Shown here one piece after another: positions 6,341 through 46,552 of a stretch of 64,000 nt of DNA; position 1 is the stretch's first letter, and each line of letters opens with the position of its first letter. The stretch is from the NCBI GenBank assembly GCA_000182565.2, contig KQ257467.1. One strand, given 5' to 3'. The notes beneath the pieces were generated by a model. That model was not told the DNA's origin, did no database searches, and was given only the letters and a program-made list of their open reading frames with translations. A program made the position numbers and the translations under genes. The DNA is from Spizellomyces punctatus DAOM BR117 (taxonomy: Eukaryota).

Positions 6341-6570
6341 CGTGGGAAAATCAAGATAAACAAATGACTCGCTTCACGCGTTTACATAATCTTGACTCGC
6401 GCACCGTTGGGCAAGGGGAACCCAGGAGGTGAAAACGACGACGATGATTGGGCATCAATGAGGTGACGTACGCAGGATACGGAAATCTTCCGCCGACGAA
6501 TTCCGAAATTGCAAAAAAAAAAGCGCAGTCCTCCAGGTTTATAAAAAGGCGACCTTTCCACTCCCCCCGT
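6341..6570 (+). repeat. Dispersed ~240 bp promoter-like repeat, copy A (inverted partner at ~63015-63277)
   Basis: CGTGGGAAAATCAAGATAAACAAATGACTCGCTTCACGCGTTTACATAATCT and AATCTTCCGCCGACGAATTCCGAAATTGCAAAAAAAAAAGCGCAGTCC recur as reverse complements near 63050-63277; contains TATAAAAAGG. Confidence 0.9.
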
Positions 6571-7489
6571 TCTTCTTTGTTCCCCACCTTTCGCTATTGC
6601 TTTTTAGTGTGTTAGATGTTCTTGCCTTTTTTGCTATTTTGTGTTGCATGGGACTGTAGTCTGCGTGGCCGGAGCGACTGCCTCCATCCTTAGGTGGAGC
6701 CCAATGATGGGGCCGGAGGGCACCTTTGCTCAATGATGGTCACCGGAGGGAGGGCCCGGTGGGTGAACAAAAACATGTTTGTTTATTCCAATGGCTGTCG
6801 CCACAAAATGGAATCAAAAAAATACTTTAAAAATAAAGGAAGAAAAGCACCGAGAAGGACGTCTCTCAAATGAAACTTTTACCATCATTGATGCTCTGGC
6901 TTATGGTCGACTACACTCTGAACGCCATGCTCGCTCATCCTGCCTGCTGAAGAACAAGATACTGTATCTTTTACGCAGTGTTGAATACTCGCCATCAAAT
7001 GGCAGCCAAGTTCAAAAGACTAGCACCGCCCAGGGTATGGTCTTGCACTCGCTTGGAAGCAGTATGGGAAGGTAGATAATACTATGTTTCAAAATGGATT
7101 TTGATATAAATAACGGTTGATTCAAGCTCTGGTTATTTTGTGGGTTCCTCTAGACTGTCATCAAATTTCAGTCTCGTCGCATCCTGAGCATGATGCACTT
7201 CAATGATGCCTTCGACAGTTCCAACTATCCGTTGAATAAGTCTTGCAGGTCGTTCAGTTCCGTCATAGCTTGTCCATAAGGTGAACTGGTAGGATGCAAT
7301 CGGGCTCTCAACAGTCCTGCACAGGCAGTAAATCGTAACATTTGGCTGTAATACTTGAAAATATTGAAATAAATGATACATTCAAGCAATGATGTATTTC
7401 CAATAGATGATACACTGGTAAAAAGCAGACGCATTTTGCAACAATTAATACACATTTTGGGGTGTCCAACAAGAGCTTTTGCCAATCGA

Positions 7490-7990
7490 CTACCGAGACC
7501 AATCGCAAGGAGGCGGCGAAGATGGTGCCATCCGGTAGCCGGTGCCGGTCTTAAACGTCATCGACCAATTCCAACCACCCCAATGCTGCTCAACAGACAG
7601 TTCCACTCCTTCATTTTGGCACAGCTCAATGGCAATTCTAACTACATCGGGGTTCTCAAATCCTTTCGGAGGGTCATGATCAACATCCTCAGGGTTCAAG
7701 CGTCCTACTCCAGAAATCGTCATGATGCCGTCCTTTTCAAAAGCACTGAAGCCATTTGGATAATTGCTCTTGATCTCTGAATATATCGAATTGATTGCAG
7801 CTATAGCTTCATCAGTCTTCTCGTCAATGTACCTGGACACTCGAGCACGCAGACAGTCACTTAAAGTTCCCTCCTCGGTAATGCTGCGTACAGGTTTGGA
7901 AGGCTGCTGGGTCACTGTTTGGTTTTGGGAGGCATTGCTGCCTGATTCAGCAAGGACGAAGGAAGTTTTTGAGGTGTGGCTAGCGGGCAT
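7490..7990 (-). CDS. Orphan intronless protein, tandem family copy 1 (~166 aa)
   Basis: ATG at 7990 (MPASHTSK). Shares IT.EG.L.DCL.A...Y.D.KT.EAI..IN and A.ELC.NEGVEL.V...WSM with the two neighbouring ORFs. Confidence 0.7.
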   Translation of the reverse strand: MPASHTSKTSFVLAESGSNASQNQTVTQQPSKPVRSITEEGTLSDCLRARVSRYIDEKTDEAIAAINSIYSEIKSNYPNGFSAFEKDGIMTISGVGRLNPEDVDHDPPKGFENPDVVRIAIELCQNEGVELSVEQHWGGWNWSMTFKTGTGYRMAPSSPPPCDWSR

Positions 7991-8298
7991 GGTATGTTTT
8001 GCAGGTGAATTGTGTGTGTGCGGTTGGATTCGTTCAGGACGAGGATGAAAAAACTGAGGGAGAGCAACTTTTAAGAAGCTTTTTCCAGTCGCGGGATGTT
8101 GAGGCCCCCATTTGCACCATGGAAGCTTAAAAAAGTTGAACATTTCAACATTTATGGGCATACCACATGTTTGAGACCCTTGCCACCCTAAAGCCAAAGA
8201 ATATGGAAAAAGTCGACTATTGCACTACGAAATGAGCAACGAGATGTATTTGCAAATACAAGGAACACAGCAATGAACGTTGGACAATTTCCAATAAA

Positions 8299-8778
8299 CT
8301 AAATCTTAATCTTCATGCTCCACTTCCGTTTAGTAAAGGAGACAGTGAGCTCCACACCTTCATTCTTGCAAAGTTCAGTAGCCACACGGAGCAGTTCGGT
8401 ATCCCCAAGTAAGGGACCTGCTGGAAAACCGTCCACACCGTCGGTCCCAGAAAAGATTGTGAAGCCATTCTTTTCAGTGACAGTGACATCTTGCGAGCGG
8501 TTTTTGATGAGATTCCACAGGTTGTTGATTACAGCGATGGCTTCCTTGGTTTTCTTGTCCCTGTAAATTTCTGCTTCTGCGTGCAGACAGTCACCAAGAA
8601 GGCCGTCCGCGGTAATACTGTATTGACTCTTGGAAGCAGATGGTTCTTGTTCAGCGATCTGCGCTGCAGGGATATTATCTTTCGATTCAAAATATGTATG
8701 TTGGGGGCCTACCCAATCGCCAACAGTCGTAATGGGATTACTATTCCGACTGCGTACGCTGTTTGATTTGCGTGTCAT
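8299..8778 (-). CDS. Orphan intronless protein, tandem family copy 2 (159 aa)
   Basis: Complete ATG-to-stop ORF, paralogous to copies 1 and 3 (ITADGLLGDCLHA, ATELCKNEGVELTV, WSMKIK). Confidence 0.75.
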   Translation of the reverse strand: MTRKSNSVRSRNSNPITTVGDWVGPQHTYFESKDNIPAAQIAEQEPSASKSQYSITADGLLGDCLHAEAEIYRDKKTKEAIAVINNLWNLIKNRSQDVTVTEKNGFTIFSGTDGVDGFPAGPLLGDTELLRVATELCKNEGVELTVSFTKRKWSMKIKI

Positions 8779-9095
8779 ATTGATTTAGGCTAGAGTTCAG
8801 TCGACAGCGGTGTGAGAGGACACTCTTTTTGAGAAGGCTTTCCACTCGCCAACCAAATTGGTTACTGAATCATTCACGACAAGACCCATTTTCCAAGCCG
8901 CATGAAAATGCGTCAAAACTGCCCAAAGCTTCCAGTTGCATCATTTGATTGAAAGGCCGGGGTTGCGTTCTTTGATTTCAACCTGTCAATCAAAAAGTCG
9001 ACTATTGCACTGATGAAATGAGCAATGAGATGTATTTGCAAATACAAGGAACACACAGAAATGCACGTTTAACAAGATTGACATTCTTCAATCAA

Positions 9096-9572
9096 CTAGC
9101 TCTTAAACTTCATGCTCCACTTGCGTTTCCAGACATCTTGATCTTCAGAGAGAATGAGCTCCACACCTTCATTCTTGCAAAGCTCAGTAGCGCGGCGAAG
9201 CAATTCGGCATCCTGAGCTAGAGAATATGCTCCAACACCGCCAGAAAACGTTGTGAAGCCATTTTCTCGACTGACAGTGATACTTCTCCAGCGTTCTGTG
9301 ATGTGGATATAAATATCGTTGATTACACAGATAGCTTTGTTGGTTTTCTCGTCCCTGTAAAACACCGCTTGACCGCGCAGACAATCGCTGAGAAGGCCGT
9401 CCGTGGTAATCCTGTATTGACTCTCGGAACCAGATGGTTTTTGTTCAGCAATCTGCGCTGCAGGGATATTATCTTTCGTTTCAGCGACACCCCATCCGTA
9501 GGCATCGGGGACTTCCCAACCGTCACCAGTCGTATTGGGATTGCTATTCCAACTGCGTACGCTGTTTGATTT
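9096..9572 (-). pseudogene. Tandem family copy 3, open frame but no ATG
   Basis: Frame is open from KSNSVRSWNSNP to WSMKFKS*. The 17 nt carrying the ATG in copy 2 are absent, and an in-frame TAG lies just upstream. Confidence 0.7.
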
Positions 9573-10367
9573 AGGCTAGAGTTCAGTCGAGAGCGGTGTG
9601 AGAGGCGCACTTTCTTTGAGATGACAATCCACTCGCCAATTAAATTAGCTTTTATTTGTTGAATCATACATGACAAGACCCACTTTCCAAGCCGCATGAT
9701 ATGCGTCAGAACGGCCCAAAGCTTCCATCATTTGATGGACCCGCGGGTTACGTTCTTTTGCTTCAACCTGTCAATCAAAATAATTATATGAATTGTCAAA
9801 ATTAGGATTATCATTGAGATTTTGGGGGAATCTCGCAGTAAGCATCATGAAACTGTATTGCAGGTGGTGCAAAGATTCTTCATTTTCATACAAATAATAT
9901 ATTCTCGAATCACATTCTATGGTCAGAGTGAGTGTCAGCCCGGTAATGCAAAGATGCTTGCAGCATGTACTATGGTATTCGTCAATGGAGGTGTGTTTGC
10001 CAGAGTCAGACAGAGTGGCAAGACGTAATGTAAAATCAACAGTGCATAGACGAACATGGGTACCTTCCATCCGGTTCCCCCAGCAAAAATCCATCAACAC
10101 ATATTCACATGTTGCGGGTCGTCAGACCGAGTTTAAGCATAGGTAGCCACTTGATAATGATGCTTCCCCCTCTTGGTCACGAGGAAATGTCGATGGCATT
10201 CCAAGATCTCGCATGTCAAAAACACCCAAATTCAAAAAACAACCAAAGTCAAAAACTCTGTATCCATTCACCACCATAAAAAAAAGAAAAAAAAAGGCAT
10301 CCCAATCCCAATACAAACACCCTACCCAAAGAGCACCTTCCAAAAATGTGTTTTGTAGTTCTCCTAC

Positions 10368-36352: not shown

Positions 36353-38067
36353 GGATGCAGATTGCTAGGATGAAAGAGAATTGAAGATAGAGAAAGGAAT
36401 GCCAGGTCCAGATATTTTATTTTCGTAGTAATCACAGTCCAAGCCGCCCAAGAGGTAAGACAGTAGGGACAGGGAGGCCAGGTTGCAACCAGAATTCGTG
36501 AAGGCAGGCTATCGGTGTAATCTGTTATTTCCTTCCTTCGGAAGCATTGGCGACCACAAGAATGGAGAAATGGTGCCAAATTGTTATGTGAGCCAAGAAA
36601 TAGTAGCAACGGTCAAATGGCGAATCCCTGATGGAATTGCGGATTGTACAAGGTATATAGGACAGCCAGGATTCACGGTTTGAGTGCAGAGACTGAAAAT
36701 ATCAGCCCACTGTGCACGACAGCATAATGATATTTCAAGTAGCAAACAAACAAAAAAAAAAAAAGGCTGGCCAACTGGACGATCATTAGACGAGAGCAGC
36801 TGGAAATCAGGGGGAATGATGTCGTACTAGCTCCACCGGGTGGGTGCGGACACTTTCCCTTGAAGGCATATGGCAGCTGGTGTGTGGGTAACAAGCTGCC
36901 CAAAGATTTTTTTGAAAGAAACTTTCCGGAACACAACCCGTCCAACCCAACAAAAGGCGAGTACGAAAAGGCAAGCCGAATCTGGTTAAGTACGCGAACA
37001 AACGTAACGCTGCCCCCAGATCACAGCTGAGCACCCATTTCAAAAAGCATATGTTGTCTCTTTTTTTGGCTTTGGACGATTTTCACACTTTTTGAGCAAC
37101 TTTCCTTTGTCTTGTGTGTTTTGAGCCCCAATTTTATTCGTTGTGACGACACAACAAAACGTTTGGAACAAAAGCAAAGCCATGAACATCCGAGGGTGTT
37201 TTATGCTTTGTCTAACGTGTTACGATTGCTTTTTTCCTGCTTTATTTCTGGCCACATCGTTCAAGGTTTCCGAACGATGCCCGTCCTTTTTTTTTTTCTT
37301 TCATTTGGACCTTGGCCGTTTTGCACCAAAAAACAGCCACTTTTGAAGAGGCAAAGTACCAAAATGCAAAAGAGCAATGGATGAGCTGATATTTTATTCC
37401 TTTGCACTCGTTTAACCCCAATGAACTACTCGCATATTGCGCTTACTTTGGTGTCCTTGGGGGAAATGTCACACTTTTGCAACCGTTTCAACTACAAGTG
37501 TGAAATGAGATGTCCGAAAGGTAACACGTGATTTGCAAGTTCGAATCTCTCTCAAGACAAAAAGTCGAGTGCGCAATCTCTTTTTTTGTTGCGATTGTTA
37601 ACGTTCATTGCTAGCTTTTGTGAATCAAGGCGTCAAGCATTCCCATCGATCGCGGGGATGCTCGTTGGTTTTATACCGTTCTTGTAACGAACGCGACCGC
37701 TGCATGTCCAATGACCTTGACATGTTGGAATGCCCGAGACGCCCGAGACTCGCTCGAATGAAACGGTCGTAAACCATCAAACCATTGCAAAAAAGACCAA
37801 ACACAATGCTTTCCAATTCCTATGCGCATTCAACACAACCAAAAAAAACACACATGCCCCTGAAGAAAACGACTAATCAGAATAGCATGTCATTTTCCAG
37901 ACAGATGACATCAGCATTACACGTGATTCCGGATCGGCACGCTCTCGCCTGACTTGACCCTTTGGTTTGAACTGCAATCCCTGGGGGAGGTCCGATGGGA
38001 CAGGAGAAGGATGAGCACGCTTCTCTTGAGCAATAACGACATTGAATGACGACTACCTGGCTTTCCA

Positions 38068-40168
38068 ATGGATGTAGTATTGTTGTTACTTGGATTCCTG
38101 CTCGAACGCGCCTGGGCTCTTCCGGTTCCCGTAGAGTCATCAGGCCAAATAGGCGCGCAAACGCTACCCGATGTTAGCACCAAACTCACCGTTCCTTGGG
38201 CGGATGCTGTTATTGGTGCTTCCTACTTTGCCATTCCGGTAGAACTGGCCTTCTTTGTCTTCAAGCTCCCATCAACGACTTTGTATCAAAAATGCGTAGG
38301 GGGACTCTTTGTTGCATTTATTCTATTTTGCGGAATCGGGCACTTTCTGGATGCCAGCCATATGGGCGTTGAATGGGTTATTGCCGATAGATATCTGACG
38401 GCAGGCGTCTCCGCCATTACAGCTATCGCAAGTCCGTATGTCTTGAATTACAGCGTGGAGGCCATCAAGGGATTCTCGGAAGAGTCGAAATTGGTGGAAA
38501 AGCAGCGGGATATGCTGGCAGACGCACAGGCGCTGACCCACCTTGGCAACTGGGAGCTAAGAGAGGACGAAAAAACTGGCGTCCGGTGGATTAATGCATC
38601 CGACGAGTTTTTCCGAATATTTGGCATGGAACCGGATACATATGAAGCCAACAGGATCACTTACGATAGATATTGGAAGTGTGTCGCGCCAGAGGATCGA
38701 GAAAAGATTGACAAGGCGGTTAGCGAAGCTTTGTTGAATGGAGACTCATACCACATCATACAGCGGATTCGAAGGGAGTCGGACAGGAAGGAGGTCTATA
38801 TTCGCGGATATGGAAAGCCTGTGATCCGCGACGGAAAGATTCAAGGGCTCCGTGGGTTCGTATCAAGTGTACAATGGTGTTCTTTGACAATATTCAGCTT
38901 CTAACGTTATGGCGATTGACTGCAGGACGGCGCAAGATATTACCTCCCAAGTCTTTGCTGAAATGGAATTGACTAGGGCAAAGGAAGAGGCGCTCATTGA
39001 ATCCAAGCACAAAGACGTGGTGAGTTTTTGGACTGTACTTTGTATTTGCTGTTGAGTTTTACTTTCTTATTCCGAGATGCCACGTGAATAGTTTCTAGCA
39101 ACCATGAGTCATGAATTGCGCACTCCTCTCACATCCATTATTGGACACGTCGAGCTAATGGACGAAACACCCATGGACGAGACCCAAAAAGAGTACATGT
39201 CCAACGCTAGACGGGCTGCAACCACGCTCTTATCCTTGATCAACGATATCCTTGATTACAGCAAGCTGACCGCTGGAAAGGTTGATTTAGATCTACGTGT
39301 AACCAGTGTAGCCGAGATTCTGGATGATGTTCGCGCCATTTCTAAAGATCTTGGAAAGGAGGTTACTCTACGAGTCGACTCGTACGATGGGCCCAACGTG
39401 ATTGGCGATTCCACTCGACTGAAGCAGATTTTGTTAAACCTTGTCAGCAATGCTGTAAAGTTTACAATGCCTGGTGGATACGTCTTTGTTACCAACACGT
39501 GGACAGTGGACAATGCCGACAGAGTGAACCTCACCATATCGGTCCGAGACACAGGCATTGGTATGTCGGAGCAAGTAATACAACGGCTGTTCAATCCGTT
39601 TACCCAAGCAGACGCATCAACGAGCCGCCGATTTGGTGGGACGGGATTGGGATTATCGATCGTCAAGAAGCTCGTAAATGCCATGGATGGGTCCATCGAA
39701 GTAACTAGCGAGGAAAATAAGGGATCAACTTTCACAGTCCTTTTTAAACTGCCTAAAGCGCACGTCCTTCCACAAGAGGTGCCTGTTCCCGACAAGATGG
39801 GCAGCATGCGTATCCTTGTCGCTGAAGACAACAAGGTTACCCAATCTCTTCTTAAGCGGATGCTGCGTGACTTTACCGTCGACGTGGCTGATAACGGCCG
39901 CCAAGCTGTGGACATGGTGAAAAAGAATGAATCCTATCACATGCTTTTCTGCGACTTGAATATGCCGGTACTGGACGGCCTGGAGGCCACCCGCGAAATT
40001 AGGAAGACGACCCAAGGCCGTGAAATATTCATTGTTGGCTTAACTGCGAATGCGTTCAAAACCGATCGCGAAAACTGTTTAAAAGCTGGGATGAATGACT
40101 ACCTCTCCAAACCGTTCACGAAGCTATCTCTACTGGCTATGATTGCGAAAGCAAAATTGTCCGGGTGA
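38068..40168 (+). CDS. Ethylene-receptor-like hybrid histidine kinase (signal peptide, ETR1-type 3-TM ethylene-binding domain, PAS, HisKA, HATPase, receiver)
   Basis: ADAVIGASYFAIPVEL, FILFCGIGHF, RYLTAGVSAITA; PAS (GNWE...PEDRE...GTAQDIT); MSHELRTPL, NLVSNAVKFT, DTGIGM, GGTGLGL; receiver AEDN...CDLNMP...KP. Introns 38856-38925 and 39020-39091. Confidence 0.9.
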
Positions 40169-40824
40169 CACAGCTTGATTTCCAGAGCACGTTGAGTGGC
40201 CAAATGAACCTGAAAGTTTCAAAAGGAGTGATACTGGATACTTGCCTCTCCCAATATTCCAATCGAGAACGACTGTCGTTGGCTGCATTTATTGTCGTCT
40301 ACATGGGTGATCGGACTCTTTATTTTGCCGGCGTCGTCCGACTGACACGGTCAAATGGAATCTTTCGCGACCCCGTTTTGCTGCGTCCTTGACTCGGTGC
40401 ACAATGCGGCGGTTAATGCATGTGCTGCAAGTCCCGGAAAACGCACCTGTATAAAAGAGATTTAGAAACTTGAGACTTGAGCCAACATATGCTCATAGAT
40501 ACGCCGGTTTTTACACTCTGCTACCGGGAACCAAGGTACACCCCTACTTATTACGCACGTTTTCTTTGGCGACACATGGTGTCACCTTTTACGGGTGAGA
40601 TTGAGATTGCTACCCGACAATACAGCGGTTGACTAGTCGGCAGCTGAAGAAAGAATCTCTGGAGGCAGAGAATATTGGACATGGTTGTAAACAGTTGTAG
40701 AGAATTGTATTGGACGTGCGCTCAAGATTAAGCCAGTCTTGAATTTTATGGAACGTTTAATATAAGCCAATGTTTTGTACACAAGTCATTAATACTGCCA
40801 AGTATATAATACACGAGTCGAACC

Positions 40825-43800
40825 TCATCTGTTTACAATTCTCCCAACAGCTTTCAAATCCCTTGTCAAATTACCTCCCAAAGTCTTTCCGTTGGCCCAT
40901 TCCCACACTCGTCGCAAACTTGAAACCTTGCCCCAGCTCAAATTCAATACAGCCATCGCAACGTCTTCTTGCATCTCCTGGTTCTCGTCATTCAGTGACA
41001 AAAGTTTCTCCAACTGATCCCTAAACCATTCAACCCCTGGCAAAGGCTGGAAATCTCCCATGGAACCTCTGGCTAATCCTGAGATGAGCGAGAGTGAAAA
41101 TGGTGCCTTGTCGGGGTCATTGAGCTGGGCCCACAACTGCTGAATCACGGCATAGCGTTTTTCCCAAGGCAATTGCTGCCCACATAGTTCAACAGATTTG
41201 ACAAAAGCAACGGAAAACCGCGCGTTCGATCCAATTGATGAGTCATTCAAGACTGTATTCATCTGTCTCGTCAGCAAGTCCTCTGGTGTTAATGTCCCCG
41301 CCTTCAATGTTCCCAATTCGCACTTGTCAAATACGCCCACCCCATCAGTGGTCAAAGCAGTAACGATCGCCTGAAACGAATCGAAAACCGGATCCGACCG
41401 GTCAGACGGCCGTAACGCTTCGGGCCACATTTTGCTCACGTTGTCCAACATAATGATACAATCACTCACAGCACCAACCTCTCGTAATAGGTCGTAACAC
41501 AATACGCGACACCGTTGCAGATCGTTTGTAAAACGACACCAAGTTGTGAAAGCTCGAATCATGCGACACGCGCGCCCCAAGCTGCGTTTGGTAGCCGACG
41601 TGGTGACGAGCGTGTGATGGATCCATGTCATTATTTTGTCCAAGAGTTTCTTGCTGGCATACCGCACGGCCCAACTGAAAACGCATAAGATGATGTGGCG
41701 TTCACGCACAGGCAGATATTCGGATGTTTGCAAGCTTCGCAACATGGGTGGTGCACTCGGTTTAGTGATACCCCCTACCCTTCCGATCAATAGAGCGTGC
41801 GACCGGAAATGTCCCCAACATTGGTCTAAAGCGCATTGAAGGGTGTAAGAGTCACTAGCGGCTCGACTTTGCGGGTTTTTGAAGAAATCCACGAGGGCTG
41901 CAGGTGAGTCCGTATCAATGCTCAAAAGCACGTCCTTGATGACTGCAGAACAAAAAGAGGCCCGTGTCAGCTGTGGAAATGGTAGTTACGGGCATAACAA
42001 GCAACAACATATCCCTGACTCACACGTGACATCATCAACAACTGGCGAACCTTGGCCACTGACCACAGGAGAACTCGGTTTTGTTTTCTGCGCTTTCTCC
42101 GCCGGTACAACTTTCCGGATCTTTCTACTCATGAGGTCGGCAAGGTCCTTTTGCCGACTGGGAAAGAGGCGGTCAGACGATTCCATGGGACAAGGCGGTT
42201 GCGGGGGAGAGATGACATTATCCGCGGGTTTGAATTGAAGATCACTTGTCTGCAGTTTGGTTGGAGGCTCCAGAGCGGCAGATTGCCTGCGAGCTTGCTT
42301 CGATATAGAGGAGGGCGGTACACTTGCTTTGATTGAATCGGTTGTACTACGTGAGGCCGTGGCTGCTGCATTAGAGGTCGTTTGTCCTGCGCTTGAAGTC
42401 TTTTTTCCACCCGAGTCCGCATGCAGTGAAGTTCGCTTACCCCCGGATGCAGTACGTGACACAGGTTGACGTTGGGTACTATTTGATCTCGGTGGCAGTG
42501 AGGATCCTACAGGTTCTGATGCTCCCGAAGATGTAGAGCTGCCTGTTGACATAGTGCGTGACCTTCGCTTGACCTTTTCTACAGAGGGAGCCGCTTTTGA
42601 CTTAGCCGCCATGCTAGGTGCTTTGGCTCCTCCTGTATCTCTTTCCTTTGCAGCCAAAGCACTGGAGCGACTGGGAGGCAATGGCTTTGTTTTGTACCTG
42701 TCGGATGATGTTGTGCTAATGGAGTCGATGCTAGGGGCGCGAGAACGGCTCGCAGTGGTGATGGGCGACGCTCCAAGGTCAAGGGAGGTAGCAAGTTCGT
42801 CTTCCGTAGGAGTAGGGGAACACCTCGGAGTGGGTACTATTTCTGACAACGTCTGCACAGAATTTTGGGTTGCCCTTCGCTTGGAAGGTCGATCTTTGTA
42901 ATCCTCCTCCAGGTCAGACTGCAACTGGAAGTGAAACAATGATTAATGTGATTCTTTATATTAGCGTTTCTCAAGCAGCCTACCTCATCGTTGTCGACTT
43001 TTGTGAGTTTTCTTTTCAAGCAACTTAGGCGCACCTGCTGCTCAGTCACCAACTCTTGCAACGCCATCTGTGTAAAGACTTCATGATTAGAAGGTGGCCC
43101 CCGGTCGGACCAGGTGGCACTGAACATACCTTCTGCTTCGAAAGTGATGCGTTTTCACCTCTCAAACGATCGATCTGTCGTACAAGGCGAGAGACCCCGT
43201 CTTCTGACTGATCAGGTGCCATATGTTTTTCAATTCCCTTTTGCACAGTAGGCTCTTTGGCCTGTGCGCTTGCATTGCTGAGCTGTGCCCGCAACTGCCG
43301 TACTTCATCCTTGTGCCTGGCCCTTTCATCAGCGAGTCGACTGTTGCAAGTACGAAGTGTCTCCTCCTTGTCTTGAAGTTGCGCCTCAAACTCTTTCAGG
43401 CGATCCCTCATCCGTCGCATTTCATTGTCATAACGCTGTTGGACCGTCGCAGCATCCTCATTTACATCGTTGCGTTGGTCGCTTTTCCTGTACCGGGGTA
43501 CCTCAGTCTTTCCAGACGTTTCAGCAGCCGTTACTCGTTGTCGCATATTTTGGATCTCCGCATCTTTTGCTTTCATCCTCGCCTCCATCTCTGAATGCAT
43601 GTCCTTGAGCTTGTGGATCTCTTCATCTTTCTTTCTTAATTGAGAAATTTCAAGCAGTTGATCTTTGCACCGGGTCTCAATCTCCAGCTTCCCCTTTTCA
43701 AGTACTTTAGCTTGATTCTCTAAGGACATTTTCCCCTCTTCTAATATTGTACACCGCTCTTCTGCACTTTTAGCCAGTTTCACGGCCTCCACAGCTTGTA

Positions 43801-44584
43801 TCCTTGCTTCGGCCAACTGCTTTCGTAGTGTATCCATCTCGACCTTCACCGCGTCTTGCTTTGATGCCACTTCCGCGGATTGACATAGAAGCTCGTTAGC
43901 CTTGCACATTTCATCTTTCAGCTTTCTCAACTGATCATCTCTAGTAACCAGAAACGATATCAGTTGGTATGGTGCGACACAGAGCGGATGGCCACCTTGG
44001 TACGCACTTTTGAGCATGCTCCTCCCGAAGTTTGTTCAGAGTATTCTCGGACTGTTGAATCACCACCTTCTGTTGTATGACCTGCCTCTGCCAGTGATTG
44101 TTTGCATCTTTCAGTTTTACCACTTCCGCTTTTGTGCTTGCCAGTGCCGATTCGGTTTTAGCTAATCGAGAAACAGATTGCTTCGAGACAATGAGCTCTT
44201 CACGGATCTTGATTATCTCTTCGCGTAGGTTGATCAATTCCGCTACTGCCTCGTCGCGATCTTTAGCGGTGTTTCCCAGATCACTCTTTAGTTTTGCCAG
44301 TTCTGCAGCATTTTCCGCTTTTTCTTTTAGACATTAAAAAGAGGAATAATATAGGTCAAAAATATTGAAAGCGAGAACCAAAGAAAATGTTGTGTAGAGC
44401 CACCTTTTTCTGCATTTTTACAAAACTCGACCAATTTGTTCGTTTGGATAGCCTTCTCCTTGAACGCCTTCACATTTTTCAAGAGTGCTTGCTTTTCATC
44501 CCCCAACCTCTTCACATCCTCCTTGAGTTTGCCGCATTCTGAGCATGGCGACGCTGGGTCGGCGTTGACCTCAGGACATGCCAT
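40825..44584 (-). CDS. ICE1-like (Little Elongation Complex subunit 1-like) protein: N-terminal CxxC plus coiled coil, Ser-rich linker, C-terminal helical domain
   Basis: Start MACPEVNADPASPCSEC; long heptad-rich exons; C-terminal RMIRAFTTWCRFTNDLQRCRVLCYDLLRE...MW and VELCGQQLPW...LW resemble the ICE1 C-terminus as recalled. The gene itself is well supported; the family call is tentative. Confidence 0.6.
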
Positions 44585-44762
44585 GTCATATCTCACAACT
44601 GGCCTGGGGGGGTTGGGCAAAGAAGTAGGCAGATGGACCCTGCTCTCAACACAATGCAACCGGTTGGGCACGTGATCAGCGATATTCGCGTGCTAGTCCA
44701 AGAAACCGACTGCCCAGCGAGATCTGCTCAACCTGGAAAGGCTCCCTGGAAAGGCTCGAGGC

Positions 44763-46552
44763 ATGTCTAGCGACGTGCGGGATATCCTGCAGCTCCCGGC
44801 CGACGCTGGGAAAACAACCTCATCGATACGCAACGCCGTTAAAGCGGAGAGAGTCAAGGAGAAGAAGAGCGGTATGGGGTGTGCAAAGCGCAGGTTTAAG
44901 TCAACCGGTCATTGACACCTTTTTTGAACAGATGGTCTAAATCGCGAGCTACTCTCATTGACGGGCGGTGCACCACCAATGGTACTTGCCAAAAAGAAGT
45001 ACAAGGCTAGACCGAATTTTAGTAAGAGAACAGCTGTTTCGCCATGGTAAGTTGTGACCGTATGTGCTCCGTCATTGTCTCTTTCCTAAACGAAGCGCAT
45101 ATAAAGGGTTTGGCGTTCCTTTACCAACCCAGCTCGAAGAGATAACTTGGAACTGTATCATTGGGTAAAAGCCACCGATGCAGAAGGTTGGTTTTGTTTT
45201 GGTCTGGATGCGGAAGAATCAACTCCGACCAACTCCTCAATGCATTCAGATTATTACTTTGCAAAGTTCAACGAAATTGTTGATATGGTCGATTACACCG
45301 AGGAAGAATATAACGCCCATCTGAAGGGTAAGGGCAGCTATGCGCTACATGAGTTGCAGCTTATGCTGAACGTAGCATCTTCGGGTACTTTAGATAAAGC
45401 AGCGTCATCTGGCTGGACCAGAGAAGAAACGGACTATCTGTTTTCTCTGTGTAAAGCATTCGATCTACGTTGGTTTGTTATCTTCGACCGGTACGATTGG
45501 CCGAATCACACGCGAACAATAGATGTATGGTGCAATTATGCGTCCATCTTGATGACTTTTAGAGTGTGTGAAGTGACTTCCATGTTGTATCAATGTATAG
45601 GATCTGAAGGAGCGCTACTATCAAACCGCGCGAGCCATCCTTCTAGCACGCGGTAAGCCGGACAAAAAGGATCTAACAGGCTACAATTTCGATAAAGCCC
45701 GCGAAATCGAACGCAAAAAGAATCTGGAAATTCTCTATAACCGAACTGCAGAACAAATTAAAGAGGAAGAGTATCTCTTTATGGAGCTCCGTCGTCGTGA
45801 GCAAAAGGAAGAGCGAATGCAACGTGAACGCGAAGCTGTCTGGCAGTTGCTCAACGATAATGAAGTGCGCTTGGCGAATAGAGAAGGGCTGACGCCAATC
45901 GATAAAAACGTAGAGAAGCTGAAGAAACGGAAATCCGTGGGCTCAACCAAGAGGGCGTCCTCTGAAGATGTGAGCAGCCCCGTAATGGAAGTAGGACCTA
46001 GCAACTCTGCAAGAAAAAGGAGCAAGGTCAAAGAAGAACCAGCGGCTGAGGAGGGTATGGTAGCCAGCCGCCTACTGACTGTGATGGCTCATTATCGGAG
46101 GGCTGACCGGGGCTTTATGTTCTAGATTCTGCCCACAAAATCAAATATCCAGTGGGAGCCTTCGCGCGTTCTTCAAAACTTCCAGCACCGAAAACAGCCC
46201 TTGTGCCCCGAGTCCACCAATTCCTGCAGGAACTTGGGCTGGGGATAAAGCCGAATATGCCTACCGCTCCAGTGTGTGCAAAATTTAACGAGCTGCAAAT
46301 GAACATCCAGACTTTACTGGAGGTGAAAAAGCTGTACGACAAAGTCGATTTGGAGCTGAGTAAGATGCGGGTGAAGGCCCGTGTGATGGGCGGGGGACAA
46401 GCAGGTGGATCTTCTGCAGTGGTAAGTTATTAATCGTCTCTGTCGGTAAAACTCTTGAAGGATAATGACCAAGTTGTTAGCCGCAGAAGCGGTCGTCCTT
46501 GACGCCTTCCTCTGCGCAAAAAGACCTAAAGCGGCAACGCACCGGAGCCTGA
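44763..46552 (+). CDS. SWC4: SWR1/NuA4 subunit Swc4/Eaf2 (DMAP1)
   Basis: MSSDVRDIL, GLNRELLSL, FTNPARRDNLELYHW, YYFAKFN, SANT WTREETDYLF...FDLRWFVIFDRY, DLKERYY. Confidence 0.93.

What the first reader, a model, noticed from the sequence alone, without database searches (positions are those of the whole stretch)
40825..44584. Probable fungal homolog of ICE1, scaffold of the metazoan Little Elongation Complex
The architecture matches ICE1: N-terminal CxxC leading into a coiled coil, long Ser-rich disorder, then a helical C-terminal domain. Motif resemblance to human ICE1, recalled from memory: CSEC..L...FKEKAIQTNKLV vs CQGC..L...LKQKIINTDNLL, and RAFTTWCRFTNDLQRCRVLCYDLLRE vs RVYVGICRQLGDLERARLFCYSLLKE. 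The complex (ICE1, ICE2, ELL) drives Pol II snRNA transcription and is usually described as animal-specific. A homolog here would imply an ancestral opisthokont snRNA elongation system lost in yeasts.
Basis: partly seen in the sequence, partly recalled or inferred. Interest (0 to 1): 0.75.

Follow-up and report, generated by a model that had tools for sequence, protein, structure and literature searches.

The report
Probable chytrid ICE1 snRNA-transcription scaffold
An 'uncharacterized' gene of a chytrid fungus probably encodes ICE1, the scaffold of a complex that helps animals transcribe their splicing RNAs, which would mean this supposedly animal-only machinery is older than animals and survives in early-branching fungi.

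Summary
The gene is real: six exons, 1136 aa, identical to Spizellomyces punctatus SPPG_07929, with poly(A) reads. It belongs to a family found across chytrids, Mucoromycota and Zoopagomycota (24 of 28 hits trace to named early-diverging fungi; none to Dikarya or animals). Its layout is coiled coil, disordered middle and helical C-terminal domain.

ICE1 identity is probable, not proven. Pfam ICE1_C is the family matched by most relatives (4 of 21), in register but below cut-off (best E 0.0049); the window protein itself has no Pfam hit. The C-terminal model (pLDDT 88) matches MIF4G domains best, the fold published as a prediction for human ICE1. No animal ICE1 sequence could be fetched, so the reciprocal test is open.

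The genome holds a clear ICE2 (E 3e-25, ending in a CCCH finger), SNAPC3, INTS2 and INTS3. All 10 Pol II snRNA loci found share a TATA element and a 3' box. ELL, EAF and MED26 were not found, by weak searches.

Verdict: probable fungal ICE1 orthologue (about 0.85), scaffold of an LEC-like complex (about 0.65). I found no paper reporting it.

The parts
44404..44584 (-). Exon 1 (aa 1-60): start codon, CxxC (44534-44545) and conserved N-terminal motif (aa 41-52, 44429-44464)
   Evidence: motif pattern in 13 of 21 longer members, shuffle rate 0.0007; CxxC in 3 of 21
44008..44323 (-). Exon 2 (aa 61-166), coiled-coil-like
43130..43940 (-). Exon 3 (aa 167-436), coiled-coil-like
42984..43067 (-). Exon 4 (aa 437-464): second conserved motif closing the coiled coil (aa 436-444)
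   Evidence: pattern in 13 of 21 longer members, shuffle rate 0.001
42024..42924 (-). Exon 5 (aa 465-765): Ser/Thr/Pro-rich low-complexity linker
   Evidence: composition
40825..41942 (-). Exon 6 (aa 766-1136 and stop): conserved all-helical C-terminal domain
41239..41940 (-). MIF4G-like part of the C-terminal domain (model residues 1-234)
   Evidence: UPF2 MIF4G-III Z 11.5, rmsd 3.7, 196 aligned
40828..41238 (-). HEAT-like extension; holds the column (41185-41199) whose equivalent in relatives matches Pfam ICE1_C positions about 51-120
40744..40824 (-). 3' UTR ending at a poly(A) site near 40744
   Evidence: 16 reads of run X8 with loose T run before 40744

Best explanation
The gene is the fungal orthologue of ICE1 and works as the scaffold of a little-elongation-complex-like assembly. 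Shown: gene, family, architecture, MIF4G-like fold, and ICE2, SNAPC3, INTS2, INTS3 and an snRNA 3' box in the same genome. Inferred by analogy to human ICE1: the N-terminal coiled coil with its conserved motif binds an ELL-type elongation factor. The disordered middle is a tether. The C-terminal MIF4G/HEAT domain binds ICE2, whose own CCCH finger may stand in for ZC3H8. The complex is recruited to SNAPc-type promoters and helps Pol II load and elongate on U1, U2, U4, U5 and other short non-polyadenylated genes, ended at the 3' box by Integrator. Homology to ICE1 alone: about 0.85.
For: Single copy in the genome. Tree broadly follows fungal groups. ICE1_C is the Pfam family hit by most alignment members, 4 of 21; profile positions 51-82 and 56-120 fall on the conserved column about 125-135 residues from the C-terminus, matching the distance to the end of the 193-position model. 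Atlas search with the Geosiphon relative lists a KIAA0947/ICE1_C cluster with the most shared features of the 10 rows shown, 162 of 256. Top five structural matches among 48,161 chains are titled or recalled as MIF4G domains; Baird 2018 predicted a C-terminal MIF4G in human ICE1 (PMC5896957). ICE2: SPPG_03937, NARG2_C E 2.9e-25. SNAPC3, INTS2, INTS3 over cut-off. 3' box at 10 of 10 Pol II snRNA loci and 0 of 2 U6. Domain roles in human: PMC5493778.
Against: The window protein has no Pfam match at all. No relative reaches the ICE1_C cut-off (best 17.1 of 27 bits). No named animal protein among the 28 phmmer hits. The Atlas ICE1 row ranks only 11th at 0.88, below INTS2 and MMS22L, and did not appear with the window's own sequence. 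Z 11.5 is under the tool's bar of about 13 for helical proteins, and Foldseek gave nothing at E<=0.001. ELL, Occludin_ELL, EAF, MED26, USPL1, SNAPC1, INTS1, INTS5, INTS13 were not found, though the tool says these blanks do not show absence.
Confidence: 0.65

Rival explanations
1. True ICE1 orthologue, but not working as a classical LEC: an ELL-free ICE1-ICE2 module, or mainly an exon-junction-complex/NMD adaptor acting through its MIF4G domain on eIF4AIII, as reported for human ICE1.
For: No ELL, EAF or MED26 found. Best fold matches are RNA-helicase or NMD partners: UPF2, eIF4G, CWC22. Human ICE1 MIF4G binds eIF4AIII (PMC5896957).
Against: The blank searches are insensitive (no control rang for ELL, EAF or MED26). 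The N-terminal motif, in the region that binds ELL in human, is conserved in 13 of 21 members. ICE2 and the snRNA signals are present.
Confidence: 0.2
2. A fungus-specific coiled-coil plus MIF4G/HEAT scaffold unrelated to ICE1; the likeness is convergence of common parts.
For: All ICE1 sequence signals are below threshold. MIF4G and coiled coils are common. Only fungal or unnamed hits.
Against: ICE1_C tops the member count and is in register with the C-terminus. Fold agrees with the published prediction. An ICE2 with no other ICE1 candidate exists in the genome.
Confidence: 0.12
3. A divergent Integrator subunit or other HEAT protein (INTS2-, INTS5- or MMS22L-like).
For: INTS2 clusters lead both Atlas lists among named families or near the top.
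Against: The genome has its own INTS2 elsewhere. No Integrator Pfam hits any of the 21 members. Shared-feature counts for INTS2 rows (135-139) are below the ICE1 row (162).
Confidence: 0.03

Closest known systems
Human ICE1 / KIAA0947 (2266 aa; Pfam PF25817 ICE1_C), scaffold of the little elongation complex
   Same: Conserved ends around a long linker; C-terminal domain ending at the C-terminus with a MIF4G-like fold (predicted in PMC5896957); weak in-register ICE1_C hits in relatives; ICE2 in the same genome. The N-terminal coiled coil of human ICE1 is recalled, not from a call.
   Different: Half the length; below the Pfam cut-off; second conserved motif at the end of the coiled coil not known to me from animals; no ELL, EAF or MED26 detected; no function tested.
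MIF4G domains of UPF2 (PDB 7nwu, 7qg6), eIF4G (8huj), CWC22 (6yvh), DAP5 (4iul)
   Same: Fold of the first 234 residues of the C-terminal domain (Z 9.0-11.5, rmsd 3.3-4.2).
   Different: 5-7% identity; no sequence match to any PDB MIF4G chain; extra HEAT-like helices follow; architecture differs.
Human ICE2 / NARG2 (Pfam PF10505), for the partner SPPG_03937
   Same: NARG2_C over nearly the whole model, E 2.9e-25; the Pfam hit is already on record in the database.
   Different: The fungal protein ends in a CCCH zinc finger; in human a separate CCCH protein, ZC3H8, is the LEC subunit.

Membership tests
Pfam PF25817 ICE1_C | Score at or above the curated cut-off of 27 bits | tested here: not met
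   Window protein no hit; best relative 17.1 bits. It is therefore not filed as a PF25817 member.
ICE1 orthologues | Sequence homology of the C-terminal domain to animal ICE1 | tested here: inconclusive
   4 of 21 members hit ICE1_C below cut-off, top family by count, in register; Atlas rank 11, 0.88, 162 shared features.
ICE1 orthologues | Reciprocal best hit with human or Drosophila ICE1 | not testable with these tools
   No animal ICE1 sequence was returned by any search.
ICE1 orthologues | C-terminal MIF4G-like fold (as predicted in PMC5896957) | tested here: met
   best matches UPF2 MIF4G-III Z 11.5, rmsd 3.7, 196 aligned; Z is below the tool's bar for helical proteins and the fold is not unique to ICE1.
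ICE1 orthologues | Architecture: N-terminal coiled coil, long disordered middle, C-terminal domain | tested here: met
   Composition by segment and model; human coiled coil is recalled.
Little elongation complex | ICE2 encoded in the same genome | tested here: met
   SPPG_03937, NARG2_C E 2.9e-25.
Little elongation complex | ELL (and EAF) encoded in the same genome | tested here: inconclusive
   No candidates for PF10390 or PF09816; PF07303 gave 4 sub-threshold hits, the 3 inspected being coiled-coil ORFs. Tool warns blanks do not show absence.
Little elongation complex | ICE1 C-terminal domain binds ICE2; N-terminal domain binds ELL | not testable with these tools
Little elongation complex | Dedicated snRNA gene signals and machinery (SNAPc, Integrator, 3' box) | tested here: met
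   SNAPC3, INTS2, INTS3 over cut-off; 3' box at 10 of 10 Pol II snRNA loci, 0 of 2 U6. SNAPC1, INTS1, INTS5, INTS13 not detected.
Little elongation complex | Occupies snRNA genes and is needed for their transcription | not testable with these tools
   Needs ChIP and depletion.

The most novel reading that the evidence does not exclude
Early-diverging fungi keep a complete snRNA-specific Pol II system (SNAPc-type promoter, ICE1-ICE2 complex, Integrator 3' box) inherited from the opisthokont ancestor. It is a compact version in which the ZC3H8-type CCCH finger is fused to ICE2, and Spizellomyces uses it to transcribe well over a dozen uncatalogued short RNAs besides the U snRNAs. Dikarya later lost it.
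Probability: 0.4. Interest if true: 0.8.

Novelty: new member of a known kind. Interest (0 to 1): 0.62.

Why it matters
Papers I read call the LEC metazoan-specific (10.1101/352906), Integrator 'present only in metazoans' (PMC5493778), and ICE1 probably lost early in fungi after testing 40 Ascomycota and 2 Basidiomycota only (PMC6351623). A fungal ICE1 with ICE2 moves the origin of the complex to before the animal-fungal split. It also marks which parts of a 2266-residue, mostly unstructured human protein are conserved, and gives a half-sized version for structure work. The function of ICE2 was called unknown in the 2017 review; a compact fungal pair makes it testable. The surprise is tempered: early-diverging fungi are known to keep many animal-like genes, and the ICE2 Pfam hit is already in databases.

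Tried and rejected
Getting an animal ICE1 sequence failed. The word-based search with P0001 gave 2 Spizellomyces proteins. With alignment A1 it timed out, then scored 8000 candidates with no hit, not even family members, so it is uninformative. PDB sequence searches found only designed armadillo repeats and weak unrelated chains. The metagenome locus search could not use A1.

Complex prediction of the C-terminal domain with ICE2 was not available, so binding is untested. The ICE2 model from 2 sequences was unusable (pLDDT 31). Foldseek gave only generic ARM/HEAT matches at E>0.001; its VIA second look again put UPF2 MIF4G first.

P0027 was dropped from the 28 hits as a low-complexity repeat. 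The CxxC was rejected as family evidence. Runs X2-X4 cross introns without gaps, so they are DNA and give no splice evidence. The 'Ice2' in the supplement of PMC10406608 is IPR013635, which I recall as the unrelated yeast ER protein (that file was cut when stored). The two candidate short RNAs in the window fold no better than shuffles (z -0.5 and -0.4) and have no credible Rfam match.

Full report
1. Observation. The region holds a minus-strand gene from ATG 44584 to stop 40825. A search with the last exon returned a 1136-aa protein, 100% identical, named SPPG_07929 of Spizellomyces punctatus, 'uncharacterized'. Six exons with five GT-AG introns of 59-81 nt reproduce it exactly. RNA run X8 shows reads piled at the 3' end and 16 reads with a non-templated T run before 40744, a poly(A) site; no read crossed an intron. 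Composition gives a coiled-coil-like stretch (aa 61-465), a Ser/Thr/Pro-rich linker (466-765) and a hydrophobic C-terminal domain. Neighbours are a convergent hybrid histidine kinase and a head-to-head DMAP1/SWC4 gene; neither bears on function.

2. The family. phmmer of the C-terminal 371 aa over 1.84 billion representatives gave 28 hits at E<=0.001. Of these 23 carry names of early-diverging fungi and one more does through its cluster: chytrids (Borealophlyctis, Rhizophlyctis, Geranomyces, Quaeritorhiza, Zopfochytrium, Nowakowskiella), Mucoromycota (Geosiphon, Ambispora, Dentiscutata, Mortierella, Modicella, Absidia, Halteromyces, Umbelopsis, Jimgerdemannia, Calcarisporiella) and Zoopagomycota (Dimargaris, Dispira, Spiromyces). 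Four are unnamed, one of them a repeat artefact that I dropped (phylum labels are my knowledge). None is from Dikarya or animals, but a single-sequence search cannot prove absence. A tree of 27 rows separates chytrids from the rest (90/93, not starred) and recovers Glomeromycotina, Mortierellales and Mucorales groups. The gene is single copy. Besides the C-terminal domain, two short motifs are conserved: one at the start of the coiled coil and one at its end, each in 13 of 21 longer members, some of which are partial; the patterns were drawn from these same sequences. The CxxC is in 3 of 21.

3. Is it ICE1? The window protein has no Pfam hit. Scanning the 21 trimmed domains, ICE1_C (PF25817) is the family matched by most members, 4 of 21, best E 0.0049, none at cut-off. 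The matches fall on profile positions 51-82 and 56-120 at the column that in the window protein lies 123 residues from the end, in line with a 193-position model ending at the C-terminus. The Atlas search with the Geosiphon domain lists a KIAA0947/ICE1_C cluster at rank 11 (0.88), below INTS2 and MMS22L clusters but with the most shared features of the 10 rows shown; with the window's own sequence it was not among the rows shown. The AlphaFold model is confident (pLDDT 87.7, pTM 0.88). Against 48,161 chains its best matches cover residues 1-234 and are UPF2 MIF4G-III (Z 11.5, rmsd 3.7, 196 aligned), eIF4G, a spliceosomal chain I take to be CWC22, and DAP5. Baird et al. predicted a C-terminal MIF4G in human ICE1 (PMC5896957, passages). 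The Z is under the tool's bar for helical proteins, so this is agreement, not proof. No animal ICE1 sequence could be obtained, so the reciprocal test was not run. I put homology at about 0.85.

4. The rest of the system. NARG2_C hit contig C6; the protein is SPPG_03937, 779 aa, E 2.9e-25, with a C-terminal CCCH finger. SNAPC3, INTS2 and INTS3 pass their cut-offs. Of 15 protein families sought in the genome, 4 were found; ICE1_C, ELL, Occludin_ELL, EAF, SNAPC1, USPL1, INTS5, two INTS1 models, INTS13 and MED26 were not. That search matches exon by exon, and it missed the window's own gene with ICE1_C, so blanks are weak. I fetched 3 U1, 3 U2, 1 U4, 3 U5 and 2 U6 loci. All 10 Pol II-type loci have AGGAAG 7-25 nt past the Rfam end and TATA at -39 to -47; the 2 U6 loci lack the box and have TATA at -30/-31. 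An upstream GCGCAGT element is in 7 of 10, not in U5. The box was noticed in U1/U2, so U4/U5 (4 of 4) are the out-of-sample check; the 9-mer occurred twice in 210,214 background bases. This is what SNAPc- and Integrator-type transcription predicts. It differs from human, where Pol II snRNA promoters lack TATA (10.1101/352906, passages).

5. Mechanism. In human, ICE1 is the scaffold; ELL binds its N-terminal domain, ICE2 and ZC3H8 its C-terminal domain (PMC5493778, passages; PMC13324577, introduction and passages; PMC6057032 and PMC13738406, passages). I infer the same for the fungal protein, with the CCCH finger of ICE2 possibly replacing ZC3H8. The main functional rival is an ELL-free or EJC/NMD role (0.2); an unrelated scaffold gets 0.12.

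6. Novelty. Ten literature searches showed no paper reporting ICE1 or the LEC in fungi; long result lists were seen only as their top 25, and most subscription papers, including Hu 2013 and Smith 2011, were not readable. PMC6351623 (passages) found no ICE1 in 40 Ascomycota and 2 Basidiomycota and suggested early loss in fungi; it does not mention chytrids or Mucor. PMC10406608 has none of my terms in its main text and no relevant hit in three supplements, one cut when stored. I could not check InterPro or PANTHER, which may already group these proteins. Earlier notes of this scan hold nothing on ICE1; two report other 'animal-only' genes in this genome, unchecked by me.

7. Side result. The promoter pattern matches 46 places in the genome against 4 for the reversed control. 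I examined 32: 7 are U1/U2/U4, 6 belong to one repeat, 2 look unrelated, and 17 head other units. Of those 17, 14 have a 3'-box variant 150-534 nt downstream (three variants allowed), 2 have none and 1 could not be read. Rfam found only one tRNA in the 20 loci scanned. Two units lie in this window. Their expression was not tested.

8. Verdict. Real gene, probable ICE1 orthologue, new member of a known kind. Interest 0.62.

Noticed in passing
window 6523-6845 (+): snRNA-type promoter (GCGCAGT 6523, TATA 6540), about 245 nt of non-coding sequence and an AGGAAGAAA 3' box at 6837: candidate uncatalogued small RNA gene. No Rfam match, folding z -0.4.
   Followed up: partly
window 63066-62760 (-): Second snRNA-type promoter with a 230-240 nt unit and a 3'-box variant; 87-94% similar copies at L030, L032, L034, L038, L044. 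No Rfam match, folding z -0.5.
   Followed up: partly
L027, L029, L033, L046: Modular repeated units under the same promoter and 3' box (box at 221-534 nt in three of four); probably the K-turn RNA of earlier finding e1-7175527, identity not checked.
   Followed up: no
L002:3800-6800 (-), G000:C6 about 621300-624300: ICE2 gene SPPG_03937 ends in a CCCH zinc finger and lies directly upstream of PAF1 on the same strand.
   Followed up: partly
P0010 and P0025 C-terminal domains: Pfam DUF5087 weakly matches 2 of 21 members (best E 0.0012), collinear with the domain; I recall it as a microsporidian family, so it may be a divergent branch of the same family.
   Followed up: no
window 38050-40168 (+): Hybrid histidine kinase with an ethylene-receptor-type N-terminal domain (ETR1_N E 2e-13), PAS, HisKA, HATPase and receiver; convergent with the ICE1-like gene, with RNA reads reaching about 40700.
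   Followed up: no
window 44584-44764: Only about 180 bp separate the ICE1-like start from the apparent start of the head-to-head DMAP1/SWC4 gene, suggesting a shared promoter.
   Followed up: no
L025, L026, L039, L048, L050, L051: A dispersed repeat family with a shared TATA-containing upstream element; one copy has a tRNA nearby.
   Followed up: no
window 7490-9575 (-): Three tandem, related short ORFs of about 160 aa each; not identified.
   Followed up: no
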